Below, piece by piece: positions 36,710 to 39,990 of a DNA stretch of 64,000 nucleotides (position 1 is its first letter; the number at the start of each line of letters is the position of its first letter). The notes beneath the pieces were generated by a model. The model was given only the letters and a program-made list of their open reading frames with translations, ran no database searches and was not told where the DNA came from. Source of the stretch: the human T2T-CHM13v2.0 reference genome, Homo sapiens; assembly GCF_009914755.1 (NCBI RefSeq), contig NC_060939.1, one strand, 5' to 3'. The position numbers and the translations under genes were made by a program.

Positions 36710-39700
36710 CTAATTAAGCTTTGGAAAGTAGTTTAATGAATCTTTCTGAAGCCTCCACGTCCACCCAGGAGGGCCAAGGTCATGCTTAATCCGGGGACAC
36801 GTCCACGTCCATTGACACCTGAAAAGGAAGAGAAGGGTCTGGTGTGACCACCAGGGCTCCTGAGTCATGTGAGCCCTCCAGTTCAGCTCCCGAGCCCGAG
36901 TGACCCCTAGGCCCAAGGAAGGAAGGCTTGGATCCGATGGAAAGTAGTGAATTGGGCTGGGGGAAGAGGTAGGATCCAGTTGGGCATCAGTTGAGGTGGC
37001 TGGAGTCTTTTAGCTGGGCATGGGGACTGGAGGAGTTCCTAAGGCCTGAGTCTTGGTCTGTAACTAGCATCCCGAAGTCTCCATGGGCAGAATTGGCGGG
37101 CCTACCTGGGAAGGAGTGGGGCCCAGAAAGGTGGAGCTTGGCTCAGTAGAAAAGTTCTATTGGGGGTAATTCTACTGGGGTAAGGTTCTATTGGGGTAAT
37201 GAGAAGGTTCTGTTGGGATAACCTAGACAAGTGGGTGGGTCCGCTTGGTTCCGGTGGCTTTGTGCCTGCCAGAGAAAAGTGGATCTTGAATTTGGAGAAA
37301 ACTGGCCTGGGTGGGGAGTGGGAAGAGAAGGGCCTGGATTTTGCAGTTGCGCGTTTATAAGGCGCTTTGGCTAGTCTGCTCAGGAGGTGGGATGGGTCCT
37401 GTGCAGGTAGCTGGGCCACGCTCACCGACCTGCTGGAGCTCCCGTCTATTTGCCGGGGGTCCAGGCTGGGACCTGGGACGAGCAGACACAGTGCAAAGTG
37501 CACACAGTTGCTGCGCATGGAGTGATAGGATGGTGGGTCCGCGTCCGTCGCTTCGCTCACTCTGCGCAGCACGCGCCAGCAGGAGCGCAGCAGCGGGCGC
37601 TGCCCCTGTTTGGATACGATGCCTTTCCAGGAGCCCAGAAACTTCCCAGGAGCCCACAGCCTCCTGAGTTCTTGCCTGCGGGGATCGCCAGAGGGGTGCG
37701 GATCAGAGCCAGGCTTAGGTCCTATGCCCTGTGATCCCGCACCCCCATTTCCTGAGACCTCAGGGACCCTGAGTGCCCAAACCCCATTTTCAGAGAAACG
37801 TACCCCCAGCCTGGGACTTCAGTCTTTATCCCCGAGTAGCCAGCTCACTGGTGGGGCGTGGCTTGGCTGGGCAGCCTCTCCGCAGACTTGGGCCTGTGTT
37901 TCTGCTGGAGGCACTCACCCTCAAAGTGGATGATCTCTCCATGGCCACAGTATATGCCAACGTGGGCCCCGCACCAGCGTCAGGTGGGGGGAATCAGCCT
38001 GAACAGGAAGACGTCTCCTGGCTCAGGCTCCCTGCCCTCCAACTACACAGCCTCGAAGTGTTGACCCAGGAAAGCCTCAGAGAGGAAGAACTTAATGGTG
38101 CTGACTGCCCCAGTCAGGGCCTGCATGGAGAAAGGGACCTGCCTTCCTGGCGTTTACACAGGCCTGGGATAGGGAGGAGGTGGGTCCTTCCAATGACCAT
38201 AGGTCGGATGGTCTGCCCAGGGCTCAGGGAGACCTGTCTTGGGCTTGGGCCCAAGGCAGAATGTCTTCACTGCCACACACTTGCCTCCTTGTGCTTAAGG
38301 GACTCCAGAGGTCCAGATATCACAGATACATCCTGCCTCGAGCCCCTACTGAGAACCCTTCAGTTCCAGCAAATGGTGCCTCCTCCCCATCCAACTGTCT
38401 TCTCATCTCAAAGTCCAGCCATTCCATTCTCTCCTCCTCCCCCCTGCGCTAGGATCCCCTTCCCCAACCAGCTCCCATCTTGCCACTGCTCCTGAAGGCA
38501 ACACCAGGGACTGGGTGGGTGTCAGCTGGTACCTGAGTTGAGCAGAAGACCTGAAAAAATCGGGAAACCTGGATGAGATTTGGACCTAGGACAAGCATCT
38601 CCTCCCAAGTCTGTGTGGAGAAGGACCTCTCCAGAAACCTCTGTTGAGCAGCTGCTCATTTGATCCTTAATACAATCACAAGATAGGAACAATGTCCCCA
38701 TTTTCAGGATAAGGAAACAGGTTTACAGAGGCTATGTATCACTGGAGTGCACGCAGCTAATGTATTCCTGCATGTTTCTGTGCCCTGTGCCCTTTGTACT
38801 AAAATCAGTCACCTCTCTTAGCTCTTCTTCCTCCATAAGGAAGTGAGAAACCTGCTTAGTTCAGGCTTCTCCCATCTCTACTGGAAACAGAAGGCTTTTG
38901 GGACTTGGGAGGATGGCCCCATTGCCTGCACTGTGCCTGATGTTTGATCTAAGAGCCTGGGAAAGTGGGTGAAGGTAAGACCTGTGGGCATGGAGCTCTC
39001 CAGGGGTGTTAGAGGAGCTGGGAGCAGGAAGTAACACACTACCGCCAGGTGTCTGGGCATCTTTGTTGGAAGGAAGCAGAATTGGCTCCAGCAGATTTGA
39101 CTGGGGTGGGAAAGACCCATATGCAAATGAAGAGCCAGGCTGCCCAGGCCCACCATGCAGAATGCCAGCTACTGTGTGGCTCACTGTGTCTCTCCCATCC
39201 CTGATCCTTCCTTTTTCTCCTGGCCCATTCCATAGTATCTTCTGCATTTTTTTTTTTAAGATGGAGCCTTGCTCTGTCTTCAGGCTGGAGTGCAGTGGCA
39301 CGATCTCGGCTCACTGCAACCTCCGCTTCCCGGGTTCAAGTGATTTTCCTGCCTCAGCCTCCCGAGTAGCTGGGACTACAGGCACCCACCACCACGCCCG
39401 GCTAATTTTTATATCTTTAGTAGAGATGGGGTTTCACCATCTTGGCCAGGCTGGTCTCAAACTCCTGACCTTGTGATCTGCCTGTCTCGGCCTCCCAAAG
39501 TGCTGGGATTACAGGCATGAGCCACCTCACCCAGCCAAATCTTCTGCTTATTACTGGGTGAGTCTCATTTTCTCAGACTGGGAGCTATGGAAGACCCAGG
39601 TGACCAACTCATCCCAGTCTGCCTACAACTTCCCATGTCTTAAAATTGGAAATCTTGCATCTCAGGAACCCAGGAAAACCTGAATATTGGGTTCCCCTAG

Positions 39701-39990
39701 GATCCGGTCTCCCCCTTTCCATCTCCTGCAATCTCAGAAGGCCACAGGGAGAACCCAGTCATGTAAACAGCTCTTTGGCTTTTGGTTATGCTCTCCTACC
39801 ATCTACTAGGTAGCGAGGGCACCTTGAGCCCTACTCCCCTCTACCCTCACTCCTGCTGGGCCAAGCAGAGGTTTACAGCTATGGAAGAGGGCAGACTGTT
39901 CTGGCCCCTGTTGAAGCAGTGGGCACCCCACCTGTGGAGAGGACAAGACAAGCTGAAGACTTCTCCAGTTACCTGAGATGTGAAGCTCAT
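36710..39990 (-). pseudogene. Spliced unitary-type pseudogene of an LRAT/PLAAT(HRASLS)-family NlpC/P60 enzyme; predicted exons 39973-39990, 38533-38550, 37919-38120, 37426-37675, ~36710-36818
   Basis: EPEPGDVFLFR...HVGIYCGHGEIIHFE and SYHSMRSNCVHFAL motifs; GT-AG sites at each exon; stops at 38043-38045 and 37980-37982; frameshift ~37640-37675; ATTAAA at 36732-36737. Confidence 0.75.
39246..39536 (-). mobile_element. Alu
   Basis: Alu consensus. Confidence 0.9.

What the first reader, a model, noticed from the sequence alone, without database searches (positions are those of the whole stretch)
36710..39990. Hidden spliced, disabled LRAT/PLAAT-family (permuted NlpC/P60) enzyme gene directly upstream of AP3B2
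Seen in sequence: on the minus strand, five exons with good GT-AG sites join to MSFTSQ|VFCSTQ|ALTGAVSTIKFFLSEAFLGQHFEAV*LEGREPEPGDVFLFRLIPPT*RWCGAHVGIYCGHGEIIHFEG|KNSGG..(frameshift)..FLGSWKGIVSKQGQRPLLRSCWRVLRRVSEATDADPPSYHSMRSNCVHFALCLLVPGPSLDPRQIDGSSSRS|VSMDVDVSPD*. The stop is at 36786-36788 and ATTAAA follows at 36732-36737. Established: PLAAT3 reads EPKPGDLIEIFR..HWAIYVGDGYVVHL..KAIVKKELL..YKLTSENCEHF, with triad H23/H35/C113. Here both His (37962-37964 and 37926-37928, the same 12-residue spacing) and the NCxHF Cys (37504-37506) are intact. The intron phases around the H-box and NC-box exons (0, 1, 0) match the PLAAT layout as I recall it. It differs from PLAAT1-4 and LRAT in having an N-terminal extension and no C-terminal hydrophobic anchor. 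Inference: a divergent soluble phospholipase A/acyltransferase-type gene lost in the human lineage. From memory and unverified, this interval overlaps LOC338963 (epididymal protein pseudogene) and mouse BC048679 lies next to Ap3b2. If so, an uncharacterised epididymal protein would be an LRAT-fold enzyme.
Basis: partly seen in the sequence, partly recalled or inferred. Interest (0 to 1): 0.9.

Follow-up and report, generated by a model that had tools for sequence, protein, structure and literature searches.

The report
Dead human LRAT/PLAAT-like enzyme gene
The annotated human pseudogene LOC338963, just upstream of AP3B2, is the broken remnant of an unstudied enzyme gene of the LRAT/PLAAT type that is still intact in many mammals, birds and fish, including the mouse gene BC048679.

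Summary
It carries a TAG (38045-38043), a TGA (37982-37980) and two extra bases (37646-37645).

Intact relatives exist across therian mammals, birds and some fish. Several rodent ones are named 'cDNA sequence BC048679', and several others 'LRAT domain-containing protein'. The human genome has no second copy.

Family assignment rests on three results:
- An AlphaFold model of the sloth orthologue matches PLAAT2/3/4 over the whole catalytic domain (Z 10.1-10.8).
- A mammal-bird-fish profile aligns with human LRAT at 91% probability, with the His and NCxHF positions matched.
- 35 of 46 remoter members pass Pfam's LRAT cut-off.

His/His/Cys is kept in 190 of 216 domains.

Pfam does not pass the human exons or the three close orthologues tested.

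Verdict: a unitary pseudogene of an uncharacterised, anchor-less LRAT/PLAAT-superfamily branch. The family label already exists in automatic annotation. The activity is only inferred.

The parts
39973..39990 (-). Coding part of exon 1 (MSFTSQ). The ATG is at 39990-39988. RefSeq exon 1 runs 39973-40236.
   Evidence: donor GTAACT. The same N-terminus is seen in sloth, rodent and horse orthologues.
38533..38550 (-). Exon 2 (VFCSTQ), an 18-nt micro-exon, phase 0 on both sides.
   Evidence: AG acceptor, GTACCA donor. Sloth P0019 reads MSFTTQ-VFCSTQ-ALTGAV.
37919..38120 (-). Exon 3, the H-box exon. It carries PGD, the first His (37964-37962) and the second His (37928-37926). It is disabled by TAG at 38045-38043 (Glu in orthologues) and TGA at 37982-37980 (Gly in orthologues). 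It ends in phase 1.
   Evidence: Genome hit with sloth protein: E 1.9e-35, 83% identity, 1 TGA and 1 TAG inside. Pfam NLPC_P60 E 0.0026 and LRAT E 0.13, both below cut-off.
37426..37675 (-). Exon 4, the NC-box exon. It has a net +2 frameshift (surplus GG at 37646-37645), in-frame losses of about 2 codons (near 37582/37581) and about 12 codons (near 37567/37566), and an intact Cys codon at 37506-37504 in NCVHF. The donor that fits the orthologues follows 37426; RefSeq uses 37430.
   Evidence: Genome hit: E 4.0e-16.
36714..36818 (-). Exon 5. It codes VSMDVDVSPD, with stop TAA at 36788-36786, a 3' UTR, ATTAAA at 36737-36732, and the RefSeq 3' end at 36714. That end lies about 600 bp upstream of the AP3B2 first exon (its end at 36118).
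   Evidence: The horse and rhinoceros C-termini read ...SVSVDVDLTVD. Gene positions come from the hub's annotation table.

Best explanation
LOC338963 is a unitary (unprocessed, single-copy) pseudogene. Its ancestor encoded a protein of about 165-205 residues from a vertebrate-wide, uncharacterised branch of the LRAT/PLAAT superfamily. This superfamily has the circularly permuted NlpC/P60 papain-like fold, also called the H-box/NC domain. The rodent orthologue is BC048679.

Shown:
- Exon structure and lesions: two stops, one frameshift, and about 14 codons deleted, including part of the core.
- No second copy in the human genome.
- Intact relatives in mammals, birds and fish.
- A PLAAT-like predicted fold.
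- Conservation of the His/His/Cys positions.

Inferred:
- The intact protein uses the NCxHF cysteine as nucleophile, activated by the first His and oriented by the second His (Asp, Glu or Gln in some fish). It would form an acyl-thioester intermediate.
- As in PLAAT and LRAT, the acyl group would most likely come from a glycerophospholipid and pass to water or to an acceptor.
- The protein has no transmembrane anchor. Any membrane contact would have to come from the conserved, moderately hydrophobic N-terminal helix (ALTGAVSTIKFFLSEAFLG). Alternatively the substrate is soluble.
- The human locus makes no such enzyme. Its transcript is non-coding.
For: Lesions and splice sites.

Single locus in the human genome: 2 matches, both in this locus, out of 9 candidates scored.

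Intact relatives:
- 84 proteins at E<=0.001 out of 778 candidates. Named rows come from perissodactyls, carnivores, artiodactyls, afrotherians, xenarthrans, rodents, lagomorphs, a desman and marsupials.
- 184 proteins at E<=0.001 out of 7280 candidates, with 120 listed, mostly birds plus characiform and loach fish.
- 157 representatives at E<=0.001 in 1.84 billion proteins.

Fold: the AF2 model of sloth P0019 has pLDDT 73.8 and pTM 0.71.
- Foldseek's top 6 are all PLAAT entries. The best is 7zom, E 1.1e-3, probability 1.00.
- VIA-align gives 7zot Z 10.8 (111 aligned, rmsd 3.3), and 7c3z, 7zom, 4dpz, 4fa0 and 4dot at Z 10.1-10.4, spanning model residues 39-163.
- PLAAT4 ranks first of 48,161 representative chains.

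Sequence:
- hhalign of alignment A3 against the human LRAT exon gives probability 91.3%, E 9.5e-7, 93 columns, with His and NCxHF aligned.
- I picked 46 of the 150 listed representatives for near-full coverage. 35 pass the LRAT gathering score, 10 are below it and 1 has no hit.

Catalytic positions:
- In 31 mammalian orthologues, the first His is kept in 30, the second His in 29 and the Cys in 30.
- The full H-H-C set is kept in 190 of 216 domains from 200 proteins. These include close relatives and isoforms, so they are not independent.

Gene structure: the phase-1 intron just after the second His is shared with PLAAT1-5 and absent from LRAT and LRATD.

Mouse gene expression (passages in PMC5131473, PMC6418183 and PMC4725743): uterine glandular epithelium at 45.5 RPKM, and oviduct, where it is 222-fold up in ESR1 knock-out.
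Against: - Pfam LRAT is below its cut-off on the human H-box exon (13 bits against 24.3).
- Pfam LRAT is also below cut-off on all 3 intact close orthologues tested (14.5-19.8 bits, covering only the H-box half).
- A PF04970 scan of the human genome did not report this locus at E<=1.
- Sequence searches of the PDB found no PLAAT or LRAT chain. They found only weak canonical NlpC/P60 hits, the best E 0.049.
- The mammal-only profile A2 against LRAT gave 4.7% probability over 17 columns.
- The model rests on 31 closely related sequences. Its N-terminal helix has pLDDT 49-59.
- No hydrophobic anchor exists, so membrane phospholipid as substrate is not secured.
- No enzymology exists for any member.
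- Synteny in other species and dN/dS were not testable here.
- Three intact His/His/Cys codons in the human copy are not evidence of constraint in a pseudogene this little diverged.
Confidence: 0.8

Rival explanations
1. The ancestral protein is a permuted papain-like peptidase, isopeptidase or deacylase acting on proteins or small amides, in the manner of PPPDE/DeSI, YiiX-C92 or NlpC/P60 amidases. It is not a phospholipid acyl hydrolase or transferase.
For: - There is no membrane anchor.
- At sequence level the H-box looks more like bacterial NlpC/P60 than PLAAT. NLPC_P60 was the better Pfam hit on the human exon.
- Sub-threshold Peptidase_C97 or C92 hits occur in several remote members.
- UniRef calls the tamarin model 'PPPDE domain-containing'.
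- DeSI-1 (2wp7) scores Z 6.8 and YiiX (2if6) Z 7.8.
Against: - LRAT has the lower Pfam E-value in 43 of the 45 members with a hit, and NLPC_P60 in 2. LRAT is the only one of these families to reach its cut-off [12 protein letters not shown].
- PLAAT structures score 3-4 Z units above PPPDE and YiiX, and cover the entire domain.
- The shared phase-1 intron links the gene to PLAAT genes.
- A shared fold does not fix the substrate either way.
Confidence: 0.2
2. The family is a non-catalytic LRAT-fold protein, such as a scaffold or regulator, and the conserved motifs are structural only.
For: - Some members carry substitutions at catalytic positions: Pro for the first His in rhinoceros, Gly for Cys in a camel model, and Ser for Cys in several second domains.
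- No activity is known.
Against: - H-H-C is kept in 190 of 216 domains across mammals, birds and fish.
- The first His is kept in 283 of 286 rows that have a residue at that position.
- The Cys is kept in 275 of 282 such rows.
- Substitutions of the third residue are to Asp, Glu, Gln, Asn or Ser, which suits a papain-type triad.
Confidence: 0.07
3. The human locus is still functional. Either it makes a shortened protein through alternative splicing, or it acts as a regulatory RNA next to the AP3B2 promoter.
For: - It is transcribed (RefSeq NR_034139.1, from the hub's table).
- Splice sites and the poly(A) signal are intact.
- Its 3' end lies about 600 bp from the AP3B2 first exon.
Against: - Two stops lie in the H-box exon, exon 4 has a frameshift and 14 lost codons, and the RefSeq donor puts exon 5 out of frame.
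- No open frame carries both boxes.
- The 265-aa read-through ORF P0003 has no Pfam family.
- An RNA-level role was not tested.
Confidence: 0.08

Closest known systems
PLAAT1-5 (HRASLS family; phospholipase A / acyltransferases)
   Same: - Permuted order of H-box, then second His 12 residues later, then NCxHF Cys.
- Best structural match over the whole catalytic domain (Z 10.1-10.8).
- A phase-1 intron just after the second His and a phase-0 intron after the NC exon.
   Different: - About 20-24% identity in the structural alignments.
- A conserved N-terminal extension of about 35 residues, predicted helical.
- No C-terminal transmembrane anchor.
- The motif reads HVGVY and NCVHF where PLAAT3 reads HWAIY and NCEHF.
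- Close members fall below Pfam's LRAT cut-off.
- Activity is unknown.
LRAT (lecithin retinol acyltransferase)
   Same: Profile-profile homology at 91.3% probability, with His and NCxHF aligned. Same Pfam family, PF04970, for remoter members.
   Different: LRAT has both boxes in one exon. From my own knowledge, it also has N- and C-terminal hydrophobic segments. The mammal-only profile does not detect it.
LRATD1/LRATD2 (FAM84A/B)
   Same: They are LRAT-domain proteins without a transmembrane anchor (from my own knowledge) and of unknown enzymology. They were found by the same PF04970 genome scan (I assign the chr2 and chr8 hits to these genes from recall).
   Different: They are single-exon domains of about 310 aa open frames. 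No direct comparison was run.
PPPDE/DeSI (Peptidase_C97) and YiiX (C92) permuted papain-like enzymes
   Same: Same permuted papain-like architecture. Z 6.8 for 2wp7 and Z 7.8 for 2if6. There are weak Pfam co-hits.
   Different: They score clearly lower than PLAAT. They never reach a Pfam cut-off in the 46 members scanned.
Canonical bacterial NlpC/P60 (PF00877) cell-wall peptidases
   Same: A very similar PGD...HVGIY.G.G..IH His-box. Z 4-7 over model residues 21-122.
   Different: In those enzymes the Cys precedes the His-box. Here the only conserved Cys follows it. Structural matches cover only the His-box half.

Membership tests
LRAT/PLAAT superfamily (Pfam PF04970, H-box/NC domain) | Score over Pfam's gathering cut-off (24.3 bits) | tested here: inconclusive
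   Human H-box exon: 13 bits. Genome scan: not reported at E<=1. Three intact close orthologues: 14.5-19.8 bits. Remoter members of the same family: 35 of 46 pass, with coverage of profile positions 2-114.
LRAT/PLAAT superfamily (Pfam PF04970, H-box/NC domain) | Circularly permuted order: catalytic His, then a second His or polar residue 12 residues on, then the nucleophile Cys in NCxHF near the C-terminus | tested here: met
   Human codons are at 37964-37962, 37928-37926 and 37506-37504. H-H-C is kept in 190 of 216 domains. His and NC..FAL are invariant in the 13-sequence mammal-bird-fish alignment.
LRAT/PLAAT superfamily (Pfam PF04970, H-box/NC domain) | PLAAT-type fold over the whole catalytic domain | tested here: met
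   Predicted model only. Foldseek's top 6 are PLAAT. Z 10.1-10.8 with 97-111 residues aligned out of 102-118. PLAAT4 ranks first of 48,161 chains.
LRAT/PLAAT superfamily (Pfam PF04970, H-box/NC domain) | Profile-level homology to a founding member, with catalytic residues aligned | tested here: met
   A3 against the human LRAT exon: probability 91.3%, E 9.5e-7. The shallower A2 profile failed at 4.7%.
PLAAT1-5 / LRAT proper | C-terminal hydrophobic membrane anchor | tested here: not met
   0 of 31 orthologues have a 19-residue window with mean Kyte-Doolittle 1.6 or more. C-termini are acidic and polar. The family is therefore a separate branch, not a PLAAT1-5 or LRAT orthologue.
PLAAT1-5 / LRAT proper | Phospholipid-dependent acyl-enzyme formation and PLA1/2 or acyltransferase activity | not testable with these tools
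   No biochemical data were found. The 17 papers that mention BC048679 were seen as a listing. Passages from 5 were read, and all are gene lists or primer tables.
Canonical NlpC/P60 (PF00877) | Nucleophile Cys N-terminal to the His-box | tested here: not met
   The conserved Cys is C-terminal. No N-terminal Cys is among the invariant or nearly invariant columns. Pfam NLPC_P60 hits cover only profile positions 45-87 or so.
PPPDE/DeSI (PF05903) | Score over Pfam's cut-off (29.2 bits) | tested here: not met
   The best score was 23.9 bits among the 46 members scanned, and it was always weaker than LRAT.
Unitary pseudogene | Disabling lesions in an unprocessed (intron-bearing) copy | tested here: met
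   TAG, TGA, a net +2 frameshift and about 14 codons lost, in a five-exon locus.
Unitary pseudogene | No functional paralogue in the same genome | tested here: met
   Sloth orthologue against the whole human assembly: only this locus matched. The search scores the best candidates only.
Unitary pseudogene | Intact orthologue at the syntenic place in other species | tested here: inconclusive
   Intact orthologues are abundant, and the best hit is one-to-one. Their genomic neighbours could not be read with these tools.

The most novel reading that the evidence does not exclude
BC048679-type proteins are a further, anchor-less, vertebrate-wide branch of PLAAT-like lipid-remodelling enzymes. They would be recruited to membranes by an N-terminal helix and hormonally controlled in oviduct, uterine-gland and possibly epididymal epithelium. 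Loss of the gene in humans, and perhaps in all anthropoids, would then remove a reproductive-tract lipid activity that mice, livestock and birds still have. That would be a species difference relevant to using mice as models of tract secretions and implantation.
Probability: 0.3. Interest if true: 0.6.

Novelty: new member of a known kind. Interest (0 to 1): 0.4.

Why it matters
From my own knowledge, lists of human and mouse LRAT-superfamily enzymes give PLAAT1-5, LRAT and LRATD1/2. This locus shows that vertebrates have one more conserved branch with an intact catalytic triad, and that humans have lost it.

In mouse, BC048679 is among the most strongly hormone-responsive genes in oviduct and uterine gland, yet it has no assigned function. 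A fold and mechanism hypothesis makes it directly testable by recombinant protein assays, a Cys-to-Ser control and knock-out lipidomics.

The gain is modest. Automatic annotation already labels several orthologues 'LRAT domain-containing protein', and the human locus is already annotated as a pseudogene.

Tried and rejected
- Pfam on the single human exons gave only sub-threshold hits.
- Pfam on the 265-aa human read-through ORF P0003 gave nothing.
- phmmer with rhinoceros P0004, and hmmsearch with profile A2, against PDB sequences found no PLAAT or LRAT chain. The hits were spurious ribosomal or LYR proteins and weak NlpC/P60.
- hhalign of the mammal-only profile A2 against human LRAT gave 4.7% probability. 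The more diverse A3 was needed.
- I suspected that the tamarin model P0060 reads part of exon 4 in the alternative human frame. BLASTP against P0001 gave no alignment, so I dropped the idea.
- Foldseek alone gave no match at E<=0.001, the best being 1.1e-3.
- The literature search for LOC338963 found 0 papers.
- The search for BC048679 found 17 papers, with 16 listed. None has the term in its title or abstract.
- The search for LRAT, PLAAT, LRATD1 and NlpC found 5 papers. I saw only the listing, and none is about this gene by title or abstract.
- The supplements of PMC3580494 have no mention of the gene.
- The supplements of PMC2864566, the unitary-pseudogene catalogue, could not be opened. 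They may already list this locus.
- Earlier findings of this scan were not open.
- Dating the loss in primates, synteny in other species and dN/dS could not be attempted, because no mammalian genome other than the human one is held.
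Full report
**Observation**

I read 36600-40300 on the minus strand and translated the exons.

- Exon 1, coding part 39990-39973: MSFTSQ.
- Exon 2, 38550-38533: VFCSTQ.
- Exon 3, 38120-37919: ALTGAV...IIHFE plus one base.
- Exon 4, 37675-37426.
- Exon 5, 36818-36786: VSMDVDVSPD, then the stop.

All four introns are GT-AG. ATTAAA lies at 36737-36732.

- TAG at 38045-38043.
- TGA at 37982-37980.
- A frameshift in exon 4. I place it at two surplus bases, 37646-37645, between a frame reading KNSGGCGLL and a frame reading KFLGSW....

With the two surplus bases set aside, the intron phases are 0, 0, 1, 0.

**More than chance, and orthologues**

The human exon 4 translation found six longer proteins. 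Among them were the horse protein F7AUU7, which UniRef names 'LRAT domain-containing protein', and a rhinoceros protein.

The rhinoceros protein then found 84 proteins at E<=0.001 out of 778 candidates.
- Named rows come from perissodactyls, carnivores, artiodactyls, afrotherians, xenarthrans, rodents, lagomorphs, a desman and marsupials.
- Two rodent rows, Nannospalax and Jaculus, are named 'cDNA sequence BC048679'. A Cricetulus row carries the same name.
- The only primate row is a tamarin model, P0060.

Sloth P0019 begins MSFTTQ-VFCSTQ-ALTGAV, and horse ends ...SVSVDVDLTVD.

Searched against the whole human assembly, P0019 hits only exons 3 and 4 of this locus: E 1.9e-35 at 83% identity, and E 4.0e-16 at 69% identity. 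All 9 candidates were scored. There is no intact paralogue or retrocopy in the human genome.

In the alignment with 24 orthologues, the TAG replaces a conserved Glu and the TGA replaces a conserved Gly.

Exon 4 also lacks about 2 codons and about 12 codons. The orthologue consensus reads ...RVLRRRGGVDRxALERRVREAM..., where human reads ...RVLRRVSEAT....

In the model of the intact sloth protein, the larger loss removes the end of strand 112-119 and the first half of helix 125-137. Even a read-through product would lack part of the core.

The donor that keeps exon 5 in the orthologous frame follows 37426. According to the hub's annotation table, RefSeq NR_034139.1 ends this exon at 37430, retains intron 2, and extends exon 3 to 37804.

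**Which family: sequence evidence**

Sequence evidence is mixed, and I report both sides.

Evidence against or neutral:
- Pfam gives only sub-threshold hits on the human H-box exon: NLPC_P60 E 0.0026 and LRAT E 0.13.
- Pfam gives sub-threshold LRAT hits (14.5-19.8 bits against a cut-off of 24.3) on 3 of 3 intact close orthologues, restricted to the H-box half.
- A PF04970 scan of the human genome gave 15 matches at E<=1. From their chromosomes, I assign the 13 that pass the cut-off to LRAT, the PLAAT genes and LRATD1/2, from recall. It did not report this locus.
- PDB sequence searches found no PLAAT or LRAT chain.
- The mammal-only profile A2 against human LRAT gave 4.7% probability.

Evidence for:
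- A profile search of 1.84 billion representatives found 157 relatives at E<=0.001.
- I gave 46 of the 150 listed to Pfam, chosen for near-full coverage. 35 pass the LRAT cut-off over profile positions 2-114, 10 are below it, and 1 has no hit.
- A named search shows that these relatives are birds, for example chicken LOC415324, many labelled 'LRAT domain-containing protein'. There are also fish: Astyanax, Serrasalmus, Metynnis, Misgurnus and Paramisgurnus.
- A 13-sequence mammal-bird-fish alignment (A3) aligns with the human LRAT exon at 91.3% probability, E 9.5e-7, over 93 columns. The first His, the second His and NCxHF are matched.

**Which family: structure**

AlphaFold2 on sloth P0019 with 31 orthologues gave pLDDT 73.8 and pTM 0.71. 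The core, residues 34-160, is confident and the termini are poor.

- Foldseek's six best PDB matches are all PLAAT2/3/4 entries. The best is 7zom at E 1.1e-3, probability 1.00.
- VIA-align gives PLAAT4 7zot Z 10.8 (111 residues, rmsd 3.3), and five PLAAT2/3 entries at Z 10.1-10.4. These span model residues 39-163 against chain residues 5-125.
- Canonical NlpC/P60 enzymes reach only Z 4-7 and cover only model residues 21-122.
- In the Foldseek-independent search of 48,161 representative chains, PLAAT4 ranks first. YiiX scores 7.8, TseH 7.0, DeSI-1 6.8 and Aichivirus 2A 6.2. A Euglena respiratory-complex subunit at Z 9.2 (rmsd 4.9) ranks second, and I did not follow it up.

**Catalytic residues and anchor**

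- In the 31 mammalian orthologues, the first His is kept in 30, the second His in 29 and the Cys in 30.
- I searched the 311 proteins then held, leaving out the three human translations P0001-P0003. 216 domains from 200 proteins cover all three positions, and 190 are H-H-C. In 22 the second His is replaced by Asp, Glu, Gln, Asn, Ser or Pro. The remaining 4 have the Cys or the first His replaced (HHS, HHG, PHC; two HES domains fall in both groups). Many of these sequences are close relatives or isoforms, so the count is not a test of independent events.
- None of the 31 orthologues has a 19-residue window at Kyte-Doolittle 1.6 or more. In most, the most hydrophobic stretch is the conserved N-terminal ALTGAVSTIKFFLSEAFLG.

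**Gene structure compared with PLAAT**

I read the human PLAAT loci directly.

- The PLAAT3 H-box exon ends CCA A|GTAAG. That is phase 1, in the fifth codon after the second His. Its NC exon ends CAG|GT, phase 0.
- In LOC338963 the H-box exon ends in phase 1, in the third codon after the second His. The NC exon ends in phase 0.
- In LRAT and in the chr8 and chr2 hits, both boxes lie in one open frame.

The middle intron is thus near-equivalent to that of PLAAT1-5. The intron in front of the H-box exon is phase 0 in both genes. However, it lies 5 residues before PGD in PLAAT3 and 32 residues before it here, so that match carries little weight.

**Mouse gene**

The qPCR primers printed for mouse BC048679 in PMC8088568 (passage read) encode VYCGQGE and HPTSSNC, which are the family's H-box and NC-box. 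This ties the name to the family independently of the UniRef labels.

Passages in three papers give expression:
- Uterine glandular epithelium, PMC6418183.
- 45.5 RPKM in day-3 pseudopregnant uterus, falling 8.3-fold by day 4, PMC5131473.
- 222-fold higher in oviducts of ESR1 knock-out mice, PMC4725743.

I found nothing on epididymis.

Full-text searches gave 17 papers for BC048679, none with the term in its title or abstract, and 0 for LOC338963. A search on LRAT, PLAAT, LRATD1 and NlpC listed 5 papers, none about this gene by title or abstract.

**Timing of the loss**

This could not be settled. The tamarin model P0060 keeps the Glu at the human TAG position and keeps the 12 residues deleted in human. 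It lacks the whole H-box. This suggests a separately damaged or mis-modelled locus.

No other primate protein appeared among the 84 hits. That is weak evidence for an early primate loss. No primate DNA is held here.

**How it most likely works**

Shown: an unprocessed, single-copy, multiply disabled gene, whose intact relatives have a PLAAT-like fold and a conserved His/His/Cys set.

Inferred: the intact enzyme forms an acyl-thioester on the NCxHF cysteine and transfers the acyl group to water or to an acceptor.
- Most likely the acyl group comes from a phospholipid, as in PLAAT and LRAT. I put this at about 50%.
- The N-terminal helix would be the only candidate membrane contact.
- A protein or peptide deacylase or isopeptidase role is the main rival, at about 20%.
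- The human transcript is non-coding.

**Novelty**

The human locus is already annotated as a pseudogene, and automatic annotation already calls several orthologues LRAT-domain proteins.

What is added here:
- The explicit link between human LOC338963, rodent BC048679 and a bird and fish family.
- The full lesion list.
- The structural and profile evidence.
- The shared intron.
- The absence of an anchor.

This is a new, uncharacterised member branch of a known kind, of moderate interest.

Noticed in passing
P0087 (320 aa), P0009 (348 aa), P0023 (324 aa), P0088 (342 aa), P0096 (507 aa), P0101, P0102: Several rodent and bird proteins carry two LRAT-type domains of this family in tandem. In birds the two halves belong to two different paralogue groups. 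In P0087 the second domain has Ser in place of the Cys. These are either tandem paralogue arrays fused by gene models, or true two-domain proteins.
   Followed up: partly
P0004 (rhinoceros), P0056 (brushtail possum), P0047 (camel), P0024 (elephant): Some orthologue models carry changes at catalytic positions: Pro for the first His, Pro for the second His, and Gly for the Cys. The elephant model diverges completely at and after the NC-box. These may be independent inactivations or annotation and sequence errors.
   Followed up: no
window 37655-37642 and 37636-37623 (minus strand): The exon 4 frameshift sits inside a near-duplicate 14-mer: GGGCTCCTGGGAAG, then GGGCTCCTGGAAAG starting 19 bases further on. 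This might have favoured slippage. Its origin was not examined.
   Followed up: no
window about 39535-39250 (minus strand), intron 1: This stretch reads like an Alu element followed by an A-run. I recognised it by eye and did not test it.
   Followed up: no
human genome C23:42193666-42193833 and C15:89136405-89136521: The PF04970 genome scan gave two sub-threshold matches (22.5 and 21.7 bits). Each has one stop inside and lies outside the known LRAT and PLAAT loci. They may be relics or chance matches.
   Followed up: no
PDB 8iuf chain E7: A subunit of the Euglena gracilis respiratory supercomplex matched the model at Z 9.2 (124 residues, rmsd 4.9), second only to PLAAT4. It may be an LRAT-like fold in an unexpected setting.
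   Followed up: no
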